The position numbers are program-made. 46,161 bases of DNA, from assembly GCF_054482595.1 (NCBI RefSeq), contig NZ_JBTHVH010000006.1; one strand, given 5' to 3'. Positions 31,201 to 40,200 of the stretch are shown here, in pieces. This DNA is from a plasmid. The stretch's first letter is position 1. Every line of letters starts with the position of its first letter.

Positions 31201-34200
31201 GTCGCCCCCTGCGATAGCCAATCTCCAGAGCAATTTTATCCAGTTCCTCACGAGAAGCTGAGGGCAGGTAGAGTGTATTACGTTGGGGCTTGCGTCTCGT
31301 TGCGGTTTTTTTTCGGGTAGCAGTCATTTTTCTTCCGTTTCATTTTGTGGGTTAAGCTTCTCTCTGTGATGTAGTGGATGAAAGCCATACTTCTTTGCTG
31401 CGGATTATCCATGAGTAGAATTTCAGCAAAATCGTGTGGAATTGATTTCCTTAAAAGATTTGCCTGAGCTGTTGTATGTGATTGTCTGTACAAAAGCTCC
31501 GCCATCACATCTTCTGGTACAGGTAAAGGCTCACCGCCAAATGAGATAAAGCGTTGTACGTAAGGGATAGCAGTTATTGTAGTGGAATGAACCTCTTCAA
31601 AATCTGCCTGGATAAAAAGATAACCGGGAAAAAGCGGCAAACGTCTTTCTCGATATGAAATTATCTTATCCGGGCGACGATACCTTTCAGTCTCCATAGG
31701 ACAGAAGTAAGAGAAGTTCAGGCGTTCGAGATGAGCAAAAACTGCTGCAAATCTCGTAGTGGTGAATTGCAAAACATACCATTCCATAGTTTTTCCTTTC
31801 AGGCGCTCTCTCGACTCGGATGACCCCGAATCAGAGAAAAAAAACAAAAGGACAAATTTACATCTCATAAAAACTTTATCAGCTACATGTGCTGCGTTCA
31901 ACCACACAAGCAGATCTTTAGATCGCATTTACGACACATTTCATTTTGTTTGTGCTTGTATTTTATTTATATCTAGATACATATGCTATTTGATAACAAA
32001 AAAGCAGATCGATTGATCACCATGCGCTTATTTTATAGTCAAGTTAACTAAATTTTTTACCGCTAGTTACTTTTTACAAAAACTCTGCTAACAAGATAAA
32101 TAAATCGATCTTAATCAATAAGTTACCGGAGAGTATGAATTATCCTAAACGAATTCCGATTTTCACTTTCTGTTCGCTTTGAATCATCGACTGTTTTATT
32201 TGCGAGAAATTTCTCATCTGGAGTTGCTGTTTCTTAATCATCTCCGCGCTGTTCAGCACCAGCTCTTTACTGGATGAAGAGATTCTGTCTATGCCCTTAA
32301 CCCCCAGGTTCTCTAGCTGCCACTCATTCCTGTGTGCAGTCTTCCAGCCATGCTGTACACCGTTCTTATCAAGTGCAGGGATTTTCACCTCCTTTTGTCC
32401 TAACTTCTTCAGCTTAACAAGATCACCTTTCTTAACGTTCTCGCGAGTGGTTAACTCACCAAAATCAGCCCCCCAATATGTTTTCTCCACGCCCTTGTTC
32501 AGTGTCTTAAGCTTTATGAAATGCTGCTTTGGTTTGGTTTTATCGTTCTGATAATGGTCGTAGCCAACATCAACAACCTCATAAACGCCCTTCTGTCGTT
32601 TTGGCGCTGTTTTGTGCGCATCTTTAATAGACTGGTTAAGTCCATGCTGCTGCTTATGAGTGGCTTTAACGTCATAGCCCTTCATCTTCAGCTCTTCACA
32701 AAAACCTGTACGAATTTCCCGTAAATCTTTTTTCCTGATATCAGCTCGTTTACCGTCATTATCACGAATACGAAAAACGACATGCACGTGTGGATGTTCT
32801 TTTTTGTCGTTATGATAGCCAAGCACAAAACGATGATTTGGGTACTTCTTGTTCATCGTTTTCCTGACAGACTCAAGCAGATCTTCAGGTTTTACCTTTG
32901 CTGATACAGGCGGTGAAAACACAATATTTTGGGTTACTTTTTTATTTTCCTTACCTTTATCATCGAAAACATTTTGAGGGTCATTAGCACGATCTATCAT
33001 GTGCTCTTTAGCCTCCTGAATCTCATCACCTTTCCATACCTGACCGCTTTCACTCATCACTGGCAGCTCTGACTCCCGGCTCATATAGTCAATACTGTTT
33101 CGAACTCCCTGCCGGGTAATCGCACCTCCTGAGATTTTGACAACAACCTCCTTACTGGCACCCTTGCGGTTGATACGTTCCTGAACGTTGCGTTGATAGT
33201 TTTTACCACCATTTTTAACTTTATGGGCGAAAGCAGACTTGCGGCCAGCTTCAGAGGACTTACGCTTAACCCTGAATTCCTTGTCAACATAAACGCCCAT
33301 GATTACACCTCAACCTTGTTAGAAACAGTTCGCCCTTTGCATAACATAATGTAGTTTTCAAACTCACTTTTGAGACTCATTATCTCTGAACTCAACCGCT
33401 CAGCGTCCTGATAGAACCCATCTTTATCAAGTACTCTGGCATTATCATTAACGATAATATAATGAAAGTTTCGCCCTATTTTATCTATTGCATTACGGCA
33501 ACGATTCATCACCAGAAGTTCCTGATCGAAAAAATCAAGTTCATTTTCAAGTGTCGTCTGGATTCGATAACGACATTCTCTGGATAAATTCCAGCCATGA
33601 CGATGAGCCGCTTTCTCTATTAAAGTTCTTTGTTTCCCTGTCAAATACATTGTGGTTTTGATAAAATCATCATTGTCTTTTGACACATTAACATCTTCAT
33701 TTTTAACCTTGCTTTTCAGTAAAGCATTGGCAAGCAGCTTCATTCCTTTTGCCACGGTTAAACCCGGTTCATCTGGATAAAGTGTTTTAAGACAATCAAG
33801 TAGATCATCATGTTGGCTTTCTTCAATCCTGAATTGAACTTTTTTCATAAAACTCTCCAACAAGAACCGACTGTAGGTCACCGGGCAAACGTTGCGGAAT
33901 GGCGTCAGAGACGTCATTTTGCGGCGTTTGCCCTATCCTGCATCGCAGTGAACTACCTCCACACATAAATTGTGCTTCAGCGTCCATCGAAATGCAAAAA
34001 ATGAAAGGCTATCGTGGCTGTGATCTGGTGCGTCTGCGACCGGAGACAACGGATTCGCGGCTAACTTGGGCGGAAATAAATTCGCTACGCGAATGGCCTG
34101 GCAGGGGGCGCGAGCGCTGTTTTACGGAATATACAAAAAAAGCACCTCCCGTAAACGGGAGGGCTTCGGCGATTCAGGAACGGGAATTTTATTCTGCCTC

Positions 34201-37200: not shown

Positions 37201-40200
37201 AGGGATTTCCGAAAGAGGCGCGAACTGTAGTTACATAATGCGCTGTCGTAACATCGCGCCGGAGACGTTCGCCAGGACTGGCGAACCAACAAGCCCGAAT
37301 GAGAGCGATAACCCCCCTCACCCCTGCCAGGCCAATTTCTGACTATCAGACGATGTTTAGCCTGTCGCAGTTAGCGCGTGAGCTTGCGAACGGTACGCCG
37401 GGTCAGTGTGAAACACTGGCGCGGGGCGCTGTATCTGCGCGTTATGAGATGCGTTAGCAGCGAATTACGGGGCGGGTTGCTGAAACCGATTGATGCCTGA
37501 CAGCAAAAAATGAATCCGGGCGCCAGCTGCTGCACGAAAATTGCCAGCAAAAAACACTTGGCCATCCTCGCCGGTCGTGAAATTTTGCTGGCGTAAGAAA
37601 TAATCCCCCCGGTATGAGGGGCTTGTCTGAAAGGTTAGTGGTTGGGCTTACTGAGAGTGAACTGTAACCCGGCTACTGCTGCAAGCTGTGCAAGTGTTGT
37701 GATGGTCGGGTTTCCGTTCGGGGATAATGCGCGGTAGATACTCTGACGAGCAAGGCCGGATTTTTTGGCCGCCTCTGTTATACCCCCTGATTAGGGATCA
37801 GGTTAAAAACGAGCTGTATGACGTTCTAAGCGCATTTTACCCGCTCCGTTGAACCATGACCGGGTTAAAGCGGTTAAAACGCCTCTGAGGGCTTTTGAGA
37901 GCATTTAAGAATTGGATCGGAAAAGGATCCCGTCTGGATCTTTTAGAGAGATTACACCGCTCGCCGCAGCCGAACGACAGGGCGAAGCCCGCGAGTGAGC
38001 GAGGAAGCGGAATTTCCACGGGGTTTCAATAGAGCACTTACGCGCTAAGGTTAATATTTGCTCAATTTTTGGTGGTGCAGTGCTCAGGGAGGCCAGACGG
38101 ATCTATCCTCTGGATTTATGCTGAGTTATCCACAGACGCTGTGCATTAAAAGCCTTATATTTTCTTCTTGATCTTAAAAACTTAAAAACTTAGCTCGCTT
38201 CAATTACCTGAAAATTATGGAAAAAAATTGCTAAAGGTGAGAGGATTTTTCACGTAAGGTGAGAGGATTTTTCACGTAAGGTGAGAAGATTTTTAAGTTA
38301 AGGTAGTTAGATTTTTCACTAAAGATGAGAGGATTTTTCACGTAAGGTGAGAAGATTTTTAACGGTTTCCACAGTTTGACTGAACATCAAGTGAAACATG
38401 CGGTTGTTGCTATCTTTAGATATGAAGATCCTCAGATCTTCATATCTAAAGGTGAGAGGTTTTTTAATTAAAGGTTGTATTGTTGTCTTGAATTACAACC
38501 TTTGTGGGGTTATGATTTGCCTACATAGGAAAGGTTATATGAGGCTTATCGTGAAGACAGTAACGGGATTAACGAAAGTTAGACATAGAAATGAAGTTGG
38601 GGTAACTCTTGCATCCCTTTCCCTTTCAGCAAAAAGAGTGCTTTTTCTGGCTCTTTGCCAGATTGATACAAAGGAAATGTTAGATGATGATATTTTGGAG
38701 GTTGATGCTGACTTTTTTTCAAAAGCTACTTCTTTAGATAAATATGCCTCTTATGCAGCTCTGAAAGAGGGAGCTAAAGTTCTTTCTTCAACTACGTTAG
38801 TTTTAAACAGAGATGATTTAAAAAATTTGGCTGATGAACTTGGGATACTATCATCTAAGAATAAAATACCTGATCGCTTGGATTTAAACTTAACAGAATT
38901 CTGTGCCTATTACGATCATCTTGCAACTGTACGGATAAAATTCACAAATACAGCTAAGCGATATTTTTCTAAGTTGATTGGTTCTGAAAATAGATATACC
39001 ACTCAGGTATTGAAATCAGTTGTGTTGTTGAACAGTGTAAACTCAACAAACCTTTATCAAGTCATTAGGAAATATTACAGTCAGAATAGTTCAAAAAAAT
39101 CTTTTGATATATCCGTGGATGATTTAAAAGAGGAAATGGGACTTTATACTATTGAGGAAGGGGAGAAGAAATATAAGTATCCTAAATACTCATTTTTTGT
39201 TCGTGATGTTATCAATAAAAGCATTAATGAGATAATTGAGAAAACGGAAATAAATCAGTTATCTTTCTCTGTTGTTGGGAAAAAAGGGAGAATGGCTCAC
39301 ATGCTTAGATTTGAGTTTAGTATAAATGAAAAATCCTCATCCTTTTCGGAAGATGATATGGCATTTTTAGAGGAGTTTGACAAAGTCGTTCCACCAAAAA
39401 AGAATAAGTGAGGCAAAACATGGCTAAAATATATGAGTTTCCGCAGGGAGCCGAACGAAGTAAGCTGAAAAAAGAAATCATCCGGGAACGTAAAAAACGA
39501 TTGCGAGAAACGAACGGTAACCCGGTTATCCGGCACGCTAAATGGTTCTGGTTTTATCTACGTCTTGCTACGGCTGGCGCACTGCATTTAGTCTCTGTTA
39601 TTTCTCTGGCAGTCCTGGGGGCTTTCAGTAAAGCTATTTTCTGGATTGGTGGAATGCTCTGTGTTGTTACATGGTTCCACCTTGAGCGCCAGTTCTGGAC
39701 GCCGCAAAATTTCACGATTCCAGTAATCGTAACGCTGTGGGGATTGAGTTTGTTTGCCACTCCCCTGATGGAGCTGCTTAACAAAAAAATGCCGTGGTAT
39801 CGTCTTCTGGTTCCTGATGCAAAGCACACTAGCACTGAGGCAACCAATGATGATCAGCCGTGAAGCAACAATGTTATCCAGTCGGCTTGCAGTGCTTCTT
39901 TCAGCCTTTTATCATCGGTTAATCATAGCGCACGAGGCGAGTTCTTTTCACTGCGATGCAGGATAGGGCAAACGCCGCAAAATGACGTCTCTGACGCCAT
40001 TCCGCAACGTTTGCCCGGTGACCTACAGTCGGTTCTTGTTGGAGAGAGTTATGAAATATCAGGTTAAAGAGTTTATTAACGAAAAATATTCTAAGGCTGT
40101 TAATATTTTAAAGGATAACCTTAAAGAACACTACCATATTTTTTATGGTTTGAGATTAAGTGAGATTCTTTTTCCTGCCAGCGAATACGGCTCTGAAATG

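What the first reader, a model, noticed from the sequence alone, without database searches (positions are those of the whole stretch)
33853..40046. A perfect 100-bp inverted repeat gives two oriT-like sites that bracket the replication module
33853-33952 is the exact reverse complement of 39947-40046. Each copy has nested inverted repeats (GGGCAAACG...CGTTTGCCC, inner AATGGCGTC/GACGTCATT). Seven nt after the outer arm comes TATCCTG|C, which matches the MOBP/RP4-type nic core (Y)ATCCTG|Y. An IR lying 5' of nic on the nicked strand is the RP4 geometry. This puts the predicted nick on the + strand at 33940/33941 for copy A and on the minus strand at 39959/39958 for copy B.

From memory, the IncX prototype R6K carries two functional oriTs in inverted orientation around its origins, so this is probably the IncX3 equivalent.

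Three consequences follow:
1. The identical 23-aa N-termini (MTSLTPFRNVCPVTYSRFLLE) of track ORFs 33303-33917 and 39982-40404 are repeat artefacts.
2. The repeat ends in TTGGAGAG, which serves as the SD 4 nt before the ATG of both taxA and the 117-aa gene. The two genes may therefore share oriT-embedded promoter and relaxosome control.
3. The 6-kb segment between the arms could invert by homologous recombination.
Basis: partly seen in the sequence, partly recalled or inferred. Interest (0 to 1): 0.6.

Follow-up and report, generated by a model that had tools for sequence, protein, structure and literature searches.

The report
Duplicated IncX plasmid transfer origin
The two identical 100-bp inverted repeats are the paired conjugation start sites (oriT alpha and beta) that all IncX plasmids carry around their replication genes; this was described for R6K in 1996 and is already annotated on IncX3 resistance plasmids, so the finding is correct but not new.

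Summary
33853-33952 is the exact reverse complement of 39947-40046, and the match runs to 110 nt at 98%, through the ATG-AAA of taxA and ddp3. The window matches IncX3 plasmid records of the same length. Each arm has four parts: a shared Shine-Dalgarno, a conserved block, a 24+3+24 hairpin, and TATCCTG|CATCG flush against the stem.

The same inverted pair sits at the same two places in the IncX1, X2 (R6K-type), X4 and X5 plasmids and the Erwinia and Proteus plasmids I examined. CTATCCTGCAT is invariant. Three unrelated but self-complementary stem sequences occur. The two copies in one plasmid usually resemble each other most.

The literature already states that IncX plasmids, including IncX3 and blaNDM-IncX3, carry two oriTs in long inverted repeats. 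Verdict: already known.

Additions from this work:
- Two IncX3 records carry the 6-kb segment cleanly inverted, against about 965 near-identical native junctions.
- A natural IncX2/IncX1 hybrid has its crossover inside the 36-nt stretch that holds the predicted nick.
- Tiny relaxase-less plasmids carry only the proximal arm plus the core.
- No consensus promoter lies inside the repeat, so the "shared promoter" idea is unsupported.

Nicking, and the function of both copies in IncX3, remain inferred.

The parts
33853..33952 (+). oriT copy A (taxA-proximal; by position the counterpart of the R6K oriT next to taxA/taxC). The + strand is the predicted nicked and transferred strand.
   Evidence: Exact 100-nt inverted repeat. 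Homologous copies lie at the same position in the IncX1, X2, X4 and X5 plasmids and the Erwinia and Proteus plasmids examined.
39947..40046 (-). oriT copy B (between bis and ddp3). The - strand is the predicted nicked strand.
   Evidence: Exact reverse complement of copy A. The bis-oriT-ddp3 position is conserved in the other IncX lineages examined; in IncX4 a DUF2726 gene takes the place of ddp3.
33934..33945 (+). Nick core TATCCTG|CATCG of copy A. Predicted nick between 33940 and 33941.
   Evidence: CTATCCTGCAT is invariant in all 14 aligned copies and in 5 small hitcher plasmids. It matches the MOBP consensus (C/T)ATCCTG(C/T) and the RP4 8-mer TATCCTGC (PMC3772185). There are only two exact occurrences in the window. 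The nick itself is inferred.
39954..39965 (-). Nick core of copy B. Predicted nick between 39959 and 39958 on the - strand.
   Evidence: same reasoning as for copy A.
33883..33933 (+). Imperfect 24+3+24 inverted repeat (hairpin) whose 3' arm ends flush with TATCCTG.
   Evidence: I5. As ssDNA it folds at -21 kcal/mol, z = -5.0, against -16.2 kcal/mol for the complementary strand. Three different self-complementary stem sequences occur across lineages.
39966..40016 (-). The same hairpin in copy B.
   Evidence: I6.
33861..33882 (+). Conserved block CAAGAACCGACTGTAGGTCACC, an imperfect palindrome CCnnC-n-GnnGG. It is a candidate binding site for an accessory protein such as TaxA. Its TGTAGG can pair with CCTGCA of the nick core in ssDNA.
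   Evidence: The invariant columns AGA.CC..C.G.AGG hold in all 14 copies, including IncX4. An outer helix is seen in several folds. The role is inferred.
40017..40038 (-). The same conserved block in copy B.
33853..33860 (-). TTGGAGAG, the Shine-Dalgarno for taxA (ATG at 33848-33846).
   Evidence: Read directly from the sequence. GGAG is kept in the IncX1, X3 and X5 copies.
40039..40046 (+). TTGGAGAG, the Shine-Dalgarno for ddp3 (ATG at 40051-40053).
   Evidence: Read directly from the sequence.
33303..33848 (-). taxA (ddp1), the relaxosome accessory protein, 181 aa.
   Evidence: NCBIfam NF041451 DDP1, an equivalog model, 235 bits against a cutoff of 150, covering the full length. RefSeq annotation.
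32140..33300 (-). taxC, a MOBP relaxase, 386 aa. It carries HNDKKEHPHVH (a His-rich stretch; my reading).
   Evidence: NF041450 MobP1, 442 bits. Pfam PF03432 Relaxase. 79% identical to the IncX2 ddp2 protein.
40051..40404 (+). ddp3, 117 aa, a putative transfer auxiliary protein.
   Evidence: NF041452 DDP3, an equivalog model, 171 bits against a cutoff of 140. Described as a 'hypothesized mobilization auxiliary gene' in PMC3402527.
33953..39946 (.). The 5,994-bp segment between the arms. It holds minus-strand small genes (34189-37045, including an HTH protein and a DnaJ-domain protein), the gamma-type iterons (38234-38467), pir (38398-39411, +) and bis (39420-39863, +). It is predicted to be the leading region for both oriTs, and it is invertible.
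   Evidence: Annotation, iterons, Pfam, inverted isomers.

Best explanation
The two arms are the duplicated origin of transfer of an IncX3 conjugative plasmid, the oriT-alpha/oriT-beta 'long inverted repeats' known from R6K.

Proposed mechanism, with each step marked:
1. Relaxosome assembly (inferred). TaxA (DDP1), possibly with DDP3 and host factors, binds the conserved block and the inverted repeat.
2. Nicking (inferred). The MOBP relaxase TaxC nicks the strand that reads TATCCTG|C, 7 nt 3' of the stem, and stays bound to the 5' end.
3. Opposite strands (geometry read from the sequence; which strand is cut is inferred). Because the arms are inverted, copy A is cut on the + strand at 33940/33941 and copy B on the - strand at 39959/39958.
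4. Direction of transfer (inferred). Both 5'-to-3' transfers run inward, so the 6-kb replication segment is the leading DNA in either case and the relaxase/T4SS genes enter last. Either strand can therefore be exported. In both directions the first genes to enter have the incoming strand as template: the small minus-strand genes from copy A, and bis-pir from copy B.
5. Termination (inferred). It occurs at the same copy after one round. The hairpin, which is more stable on the nicked strand, would help the relaxase recognise the site.

Shown here: the repeat, its anatomy, its conservation, the co-variation of stem sequences, its position and the cognate protein families.

The two copies are kept alike within a plasmid, either by gene conversion or by joint selection from one relaxase. 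They also act as recombination joints, giving rare inversion of the segment and exchange of replicon cassettes between IncX subgroups.
For: Repeat and anatomy.

Replicon and genes: identical IncX3/MOBP/MPF_T records; DDP1, MobP1 and DDP3 family hits above the curated cutoffs; Pfam Relaxase.

Conserved architecture: a 94-110-nt inverted pair abuts taxA and ddp3 (a DUF2726 gene in IncX4) in the IncX1, X2, X4 and X5 plasmids and the Erwinia and Proteus plasmids examined.

Nick core: CTATCCTGCAT is invariant, even though TaxC identity falls to 36%.

Stem co-variation: three unrelated but complementary stems lie flush with the core, namely GGGCAAACG/CGTTTGCCC, GCCTAACAA/TTGTTAGGC and GACAATCTG/CGGATTGTC. 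A 1.9-kb plasmid adds a single compensatory change.

Within-plasmid identity is 90-100% in five of seven plasmids, against values down to 38% between lineages.

Hitchers: relaxase-less 1.5-2.9-kb plasmids keep just the proximal arm plus the core.

Natural joint: an IncX2/IncX1 hybrid switches parent inside the 36-nt shared stretch that contains the predicted nick.

Literature: PMC3402527, PMC3332091, PMC5955891, PMC11915502, bioRxiv 10.1101/2024.01.30.577996, and PMC3772185 for the MOBP consensus and the upstream-IR geometry.
Against: - No experiment on IncX3 was found in the papers I could read. The published statements for IncX3 are annotations made by analogy with R6K.
- R6K's own sequence and the 1996 and 1997 papers could not be read here. 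The R6K comparison therefore rests on an IncX2 proxy, and the mapped R6K nick position could not be compared.
- oriTfinder reportedly fails to call an oriT on IncX3, and one paper proposes a different region (PMC9492964).
- The strand asymmetry of the hairpin is small in two of six lineages.
- The two inverted records could be assembly errors across a 100-bp repeat.
Confidence: 0.9

Rival explanations
1. The repeats are primarily parts of the vegetative alpha and beta replication origins, as the R6K long inverted repeats were first described. On this view the apparent 'DNA distortion' by Ddp1-3 reflects replication rather than transfer. This is not exclusive of the oriT role.
For: IncX papers annotate alpha and beta oriV at or next to these repeats (PMC3332091, PMC5955891, PMC4207749). 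The genes still carry the name 'DNA distortion polypeptide'. The repeats flank pir, bis and the iterons.
Against: No iteron-like sequence lies within or beside either arm at up to 3 mismatches. The invariant part is a relaxase nick core with a co-varying stem. Small plasmids with unrelated Col-type replicons carry just that part, which makes sense for mobilisation and not for pi-dependent replication.
Confidence: 0.25
2. Only the taxA-proximal copy is a working oriT in IncX3. The ddp3-side copy is a duplicated 5' leader/SD cassette or a relic, kept identical by gene conversion.
For: One oriT is sufficient for conjugation. The outer end of the repeat does supply the SD and start context of ddp3.
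Against: Copy B keeps the whole hairpin and nick core at 100% identity, not only the SD end. The pair is retained in every lineage examined, including IncX4, where the neighbouring gene differs. The title of Avila et al. 1996, cited in PMC10123127, states that both R6K copies are functional and assemble relaxosomes simultaneously.
Confidence: 0.08
3. The true oriT is the roughly 354-bp intergenic region on the other side of the relaxase gene (taxC-actX, about 31788-32139), as proposed for blaOXA-181 IncX3 plasmids. The repeats would then do something else.
For: PMC9492964 nominated that region, with the IR TAACTA..TAGTTA, after oriTfinder found nothing.
Against: That region has no match to the nick core, even at 2 mismatches. 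The nomination rested only on adjacency and a 6-bp inverted repeat. The repeats carry every MOBP oriT hallmark and match the IncX2/R6K-type oriT.
Confidence: 0.03
4. The arms are the terminal inverted repeats of a transposable or site-specifically invertible element that carries the replicon.
For: A perfect inverted pair brackets a discrete 6-kb segment, which is found in both orientations in public records.
Against: No transposase or invertase gene lies between the arms. No target-site duplication flanks them: the flanks TCATAAAA and AGTTATGA are read. The same pair sits at the same backbone position in all IncX lineages examined rather than at varying sites. Only 2 of about 965 near-identical records are inverted.
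Confidence: 0.02

Closest known systems
R6K (IncX2) oriT-alpha / oriT-beta in the long inverted repeats (Avila, Nunez & de la Cruz 1996; Nunez et al. 1997), with taxA, taxC and ddp3
   Same: Two copies in inverted orientation. One abuts taxA-taxC and the other lies after pir-bis, next to ddp3. An IncX2-type copy is 87-89% identical to the IncX3 repeat, and the proximal arm plus TATCCTGCATCGCAGT is identical. TaxC is 79% identical and the DDP1/DDP3 families are the same.
   Different: The loop and distal half of the hairpin differ. The IncX3 pair is perfect over 100 nt, whereas the IncX2 proxy's pair is 92-94% in two pieces. The comparison used pNGX2-QnrS1, not R6K itself, which is not in the collections.
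[quoted passage not shown]
   Same: The same architecture and almost the same sequence: IncX1 copies are 97-99% identical to the IncX3 repeat, although TaxC is only about 88% identical. Described in PMC3402527 and PMC3332091.
   Different: The pir/replicon type and the cargo differ. The IncX1 pair examined is 96% identical rather than perfect.
RP4/R751 (IncP, MOBP11) oriT
   Same: The 8-mer TATCCTGC at the nick is identical. An inverted repeat lies immediately 5' of the nick region on the nicked strand. The relaxase is MOBP with PF03432, and a small accessory protein gene starts next to the oriT (PMC3772185).
   Different: RP4 has a single copy. There is no similarity outside the core. The IncX stem is flush with TATCCTG, so the nick lies 7 nt from the stem. 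TaxC belongs to a different MOBP subgroup.
Other dual or inverted oriT arrangements, such as pMET1/HPI-ECOR31 with two nic sites inside one inverted repeat, and R1162 constructs with two oriTs
   Same: Inverted nic sites allow either strand to be transferred. With two oriTs, transfer can initiate at one and terminate at the other (PMC2262945).
   Different: Those sites sit within one compact inverted repeat or in artificial constructs. Here the copies are 6 kb apart and bracket the replicon.

Membership tests
IncX duplicated oriT (R6K oriT-alpha/beta, 'LIR') | Two copies of about 100 nt in inverted orientation bracketing the pir/iteron replication module | tested here: met
   the repeat; pir, bis and the iterons lie between the arms.
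IncX duplicated oriT (R6K oriT-alpha/beta, 'LIR') | One copy immediately upstream of taxA-taxC, the other next to ddp3 downstream of pir-bis | tested here: met
   The same layout is seen in the IncX1, X2 and X5 plasmids and the Erwinia and Proteus plasmids examined.
IncX duplicated oriT (R6K oriT-alpha/beta, 'LIR') | Sequence homology to the R6K oriTs | tested here: inconclusive
   The feature is met against an IncX2 plasmid that carries R6K gamma-ori iterons at 100% identity and a protein annotated 'replication initiation protein PI'. Identity is 87-89%. R6K's own record is not in the collections, so the direct alignment was not possible.
IncX duplicated oriT (R6K oriT-alpha/beta, 'LIR') | Both copies nicked in vivo and each able to support mobilisation | not testable with these tools
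   This needs mobilisation assays and nick mapping. The only indirect support is that both copies are fully conserved and that a natural hybrid has its joint at the predicted nick.
MOBP (RP4-type) oriT nick region | Core (C/T)ATCCTG(C/T) | tested here: met
   TATCCTGC occurs in both copies and is invariant in all 14 homologous copies. The consensus is taken from PMC3772185.
MOBP (RP4-type) oriT nick region | Inverted repeat immediately 5' of the nick region on the nicked strand | tested here: met
   The stem ends flush with TATCCTG in every lineage.
MOBP (RP4-type) oriT nick region | Cognate relaxase of the MOBP class encoded nearby | tested here: met
   NF041450 MobP1 at 442 bits; PF03432; MOB-suite typing MOBP.
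MOBP (RP4-type) oriT nick region | Cleavage between G and the following pyrimidine, with the relaxase on the 5' end | not testable with these tools
   Inferred from the family rule only.
Transposon or invertible-element terminal inverted repeats | Transposase or invertase within the element, target-site duplication, and variable insertion sites | tested here: not met
   No such gene lies between the arms. No flanking direct repeat is present. The backbone position is fixed across lineages.

The most novel reading that the evidence does not exclude
The inward-facing oriT pair may be more than redundancy. It could give the plasmid two alternative leading regions, each with genes oriented so that the incoming single strand is their template. 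From oriT-B these are bis and pir, the replication initiator. From oriT-A they are the small orphan, HTH and DnaJ-domain genes.

The same two nick sites may also serve as relaxase-dependent recombination joints that invert the replicon segment and swap whole replicon cassettes between IncX subgroups. An IncX2/IncX1 hybrid whose crossover lies in the 36-nt nick-containing stretch suggests this, as do the rare inverted isomers. The evidence does not exclude this reading, but it does not distinguish relaxase-mediated exchange from RecA-mediated exchange, and it shows no early expression.
Probability: 0.2. Interest if true: 0.45.

Novelty: already known. Interest (0 to 1): 0.15.

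Why it matters
IncX3 plasmids are major vehicles of blaNDM and other carbapenemase genes, so the correct position of their oriTs has practical uses. 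It matters for mobility prediction: oriTfinder reportedly misses them, and one paper placed the oriT elsewhere. It matters for recognising tiny oriT-only plasmids that IncX helpers could mobilise. It also matters for interpreting assemblies, because a 100-bp inverted repeat can yield two isomers. None of this changes current understanding. The duplicated IncX oriT has been textbook knowledge since 1996 and is already drawn on IncX3 maps.

Tried and rejected
- R6K itself and two IncX2 accessions could not be fetched.
- Avila 1996, Nunez 1997 and Rakowski 2013 are not held, so the experimentally mapped R6K nick could not be compared.
- A literature search for ATCCTG with R6K returned only noise. 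The paper cap ended further reading.
- The promoter scan found no sigma-70-like site inside either arm facing taxA or ddp3. The only candidate for taxA is at 34155-34128, outside the repeat, and site counts equal the shuffle expectation. I therefore rejected the 'oriT-embedded shared promoter' as unsupported, not as disproved.
- I looked for a large ssDNA promoter or ssi-type structure in the first 250 nt that would enter from copy A. The fold is no better than shuffles, z = -0.86.
- No iteron-like sequence lies near the arms at up to 3 mismatches.
- TaxA and DDP3 have no PDB relatives by sequence and no Pfam domain.
- The single-sequence AlphaFold model of TaxA was poor (pLDDT 52), so I ran no fold search. 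A tandem ribbon-helix-helix reading of TaxA remains my guess from the sequence.
- Pfam gave nothing for most leading-segment genes apart from the DnaJ domain and a weak HTH.
- I considered and rejected the transposon-end and invertase-site explanations (see rivals).

Full report
**Observation**

The window's length (46,161 bp) equals that of many public IncX3 plasmid records. An 8-kb query spanning the finding matches those records at 100% identity. MOB-suite types them as conjugative, MOBP, MPF_T.

33853-33952 is the exact reverse complement of 39947-40046. Exactness stops at the first base beyond each end. On the outer side the similarity resumes, giving 110 nt at 98% that includes ATG-AAA of both flanking genes. 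The only other long inverted pair in the window is the 84-nt ends of a Tn3-family IS around a 1005-aa ORF. Chance is not an issue.

**Anatomy of one arm (copy A, + strand)**

- 33853-33860, CTCTCCAA. This is the complement of TTGGAGAG, the SD for taxA.
- 33861-33882, a conserved block.
- 33883-33933, a 24+3+24 imperfect inverted repeat.
- 33934-33945, TATCCTGCATCG.
- 33946-33952, the end of the repeat.

The 12-mer occurs exactly twice in the window, once per arm and on opposite strands. The stem is flush with TATCCTG, so the nick would lie 7 nt from the stem.

All five arm mismatches are G.T on the strand carrying TATCCTG. That strand therefore folds with 24 contiguous pairs at -21.0 kcal/mol (z = -5.0), against -16.2 kcal/mol for its complement. 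In the six lineages folded, the nicked strand is always at least as stable as its complement, although the difference is trivial in two.

**Genes**

- RefSeq and NCBIfam identify 33303-33848 (-) as DDP1/TaxA, 32140-33300 (-) as a MobP1-family relaxase (TaxC; Pfam Relaxase), and 40051-40404 (+) as DDP3. All three score above the curated cutoffs with full-length coverage.
- The 23-codon N-terminal extensions of the longest ORFs share 21 identical residues.
- Between the arms lie small minus-strand genes (one weak HTH, one DnaJ-domain protein, the rest without Pfam hits), six 22-bp iterons, pir and bis.

**Comparative evidence**

I fetched complete plasmids spanning the family: two typed IncX1 (one of which proved to be an IncX2/IncX1 hybrid), IncX2, IncX4, IncX5, and an Erwinia and a Proteus plasmid. 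TaxC identity to the window ranges from 91% down to 36%.

- Each plasmid has one inverted pair of 94-110 nt. One copy abuts the taxA start. The other abuts the start of ddp3, or in IncX4 a DUF2726 gene weakly similar to DDP3.
- In the 14-copy alignment CTATCCTGCAT is invariant, as is a pattern AGA.CC..C.G.AGG in the conserved block.
- The stem flush with the core has three unrelated sequences, each self-complementary: GGGCAAACG/CGTTTGCCC, GCCTAACAA/TTGTTAGGC and GACAATCTG/CGGATTGTC. A 1.9-kb plasmid adds a single compensatory change.
- The two copies within a plasmid are 90-100% identical in five of seven plasmids, while lineages differ down to 38%. The copies therefore evolve in concert.
- The IncX2 plasmid (L008) serves as a proxy for R6K. 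It carries R6K gamma-ori iterons at 100% identity and a protein annotated 'replication initiation protein PI'. An IncX2-type copy is 87-89% identical to the IncX3 repeat, and its proximal arm and TATCCTGCATCGCAGT are identical. The caveat is that R6K itself was not available.

**Independent natural evidence that this is an oriT**

1. The repeat query also hits 1.5-3.7-kb plasmids. The five I fetched are 1.5-2.9 kb. Four have Col-type or other small replicons and no annotated relaxase. The fifth encodes a MobV relaxase. None has a MOBP relaxase, and each retains only the proximal arm plus the core. This pattern is expected of oriT-only hitchers.
2. A hybrid plasmid (L002) is 100% IncX2-type up to about position 26999 and 100% IncX1-type from there on. 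The switch lies inside the 36-nt stretch shared by both parents, which contains TATCCTG|C.

**Literature**

- PMC3402527 states that IncX plasmids harbour two oriTs within long inverted repeats, one near taxC and one near the replication gene, with ddp3 beside the second. [quoted passage not shown] - PMC5955891 says IncX3 plasmids carry oriT-alpha and oriT-beta.
- PMC11915502 (2025) labels both oriTs on a blaNDM-IncX3 plasmid, following Avila et al. 1996, and reports binding of an H-NS-like protein there.
- bioRxiv 10.1101/2024.01.30.577996 treats a doubled oriT_R6K as the norm.
- PMC3772185 gives the MOBP consensus (C/T)ATCCTG(C/T), the RP4 sequence ...CACCTATCCTGCCCGG..., and the upstream-IR geometry.
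- In contrast, PMC9492964 reports that oriTfinder finds no oriT on IncX3 and nominates the 354-bp intergenic region on the other side of taxC. That region has no core-like sequence. I regard the nomination as mistaken.

1. The ORF artefact is confirmed.
2. The shared SD is confirmed and conserved in IncX1, X3 and X5. However, no consensus promoter lies within the arms facing either gene. The only taxA-directed candidate is outside the repeat, at 34155-34128, and ddp3 may simply be read through from pir-bis. Shared relaxosome control is possible but unsupported.
3. Inversion was tested directly. A synthetic junction, taxA side plus arm plus the reverse complement of the bis side, matches two IncX3 records at 100% over 1000 nt. 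The native junction matches 1431 records at 80% coverage or more, and 965 records have a best match of at least 99% identity. In both inverted records the whole 33953-39946 segment is cleanly inverted between the arms. The analogous test for IncX4 found one diverged plasmid with the inverted order. Inversion therefore occurs, or is occasionally mis-assembled, but one orientation is overwhelmingly predominant.

**Mechanism (inferred)**

TaxC with TaxA nicks each arm at G|C. The arms are inverted, so the nicks lie on opposite strands, and both 5'-to-3' transfers lead into the 6-kb segment. In both directions the first genes to enter have the incoming strand as their template. This geometry follows from the coordinates. 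Whether it has consequences, such as early pir expression, is speculation.

**Verdict**

This is a correct identification of a known feature. Novelty: already known. Interest: low.

What this work adds:
- the database evidence for inverted isomers;
- the hybrid joint at the predicted nick;
- the three co-varying stem sequences;
- the list of hitcher plasmids;
- the correction of a misplaced oriT in one paper.

Noticed in passing
L002 (NZ_CP080086.1) 26940-27059; compare L008 and L003: This hybrid plasmid is 100% IncX2-type (transfer genes, taxC, taxA, distal half of oriT) up to about 26999 and 100% IncX1-type (leading genes, pir, bis) from there on. The crossover lies in the 36-nt stretch common to both parents, which contains the predicted nick (TATCCTG|C at 27013-27020). 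This suggests exchange of replicon cassettes at the oriT, possibly mediated by the relaxase.
   Followed up: partly
L011-L015 (NZ_CP039859.1, NZ_CP069837.1, NZ_AP025223.1, NZ_AP027631.1, NZ_AP026391.1): Plasmids of 1.5-2.9 kb with unrelated small replicons and no MOBP relaxase carry GACGTCAyTTTGCGGCGTTwGCCCTATCCTGCATCG, the proximal arm plus nick core of the IncX oriT. They are probably oriT-only hitchers of IncX helpers. MOB-suite types most of them as non-mobilizable.
   Followed up: partly
L012 (NZ_CP069837.1, 1506 bp) +53 and -102: This tiny Col(MG828) plasmid has two convergent nick cores about 40 nt apart. One has the IncX1/2/3-type stem (..GTTTGCCC) and one the IncX4-type stem (GATTGTC). 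This looks like dual helper specificity.
   Followed up: no
L004 (IncX4) 30437-30964 (-) and 30979-31072: IncX4 lacks an annotated ddp3. A DUF2726 gene starts at the outer end of oriT copy B, in the ddp3 position, and is weakly similar to DDP3 (28% over 99 aa, pairwise E = 2e-4). DDP3 may be a diverged DUF2726-type protein.
   Followed up: partly
window 35016-35113 and 37041-37138: These are two direct copies (98 nt, 82%) of an upstream region on the minus strand. On that strand each contains TGGTATAAT (an extended -10-like element; my reading) and the palindrome TACCATCATATGATGGTA. They precede the 112-aa gene and the DnaJ-domain gene, and look like a duplicated promoter/operator in the leading segment, near a small HTH gene (35114-35356).
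   Followed up: no
window 33883-33933 and homologues: All five mismatches in the 24-nt arms are G.T on the nicked strand and A.C on the complement. The hairpin is at least as stable on the nicked strand in 6 of 6 lineages (X3 -21.0 vs -16.2 kcal/mol; Erwinia -23.8 vs -13.6 kcal/mol), though by only 0.1 kcal/mol in the Proteus plasmid.
   Followed up: partly
window 33861-33882 / 40017-40038: The conserved block contains TGTAGG, which can pair with CCTGCA of the nick core in ssDNA. In IncX4 the block is a perfect palindrome, CCTGC-G-GCAGG, that repeats the core pentamer. Its role is unknown.
   Followed up: no
window 38414-38451 and 39327-39351: A perfect 17-bp palindrome with a 4-nt spacer lies just after the iteron array, at the pir start. 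An inverted, diverged iteron-like sequence (76% to 38228-38252) lies inside the 3' end of pir. From memory, this is reminiscent of the R6K beta-origin half-iteron.
   Followed up: no
window 31788-32139: PMC9492964 proposed this taxC-actX intergenic region as the IncX3 'oriT-like region' after oriTfinder failed. It has no nick-core-like sequence at 2 mismatches or fewer. The published assignment appears to be wrong.
   Followed up: partly
window 5470-5553 / 8622-8705; 42423-42482: An 84-nt inverted pair (97.6%) flanks a 1005-aa ORF. The ORF's size and GGGG-starting ends suggest a Tn3-family IS (my reading). Separately, a 62-nt imperfect palindrome lies upstream of the partition ATPase gene and is possibly a par operator or centromere.
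   Followed up: no
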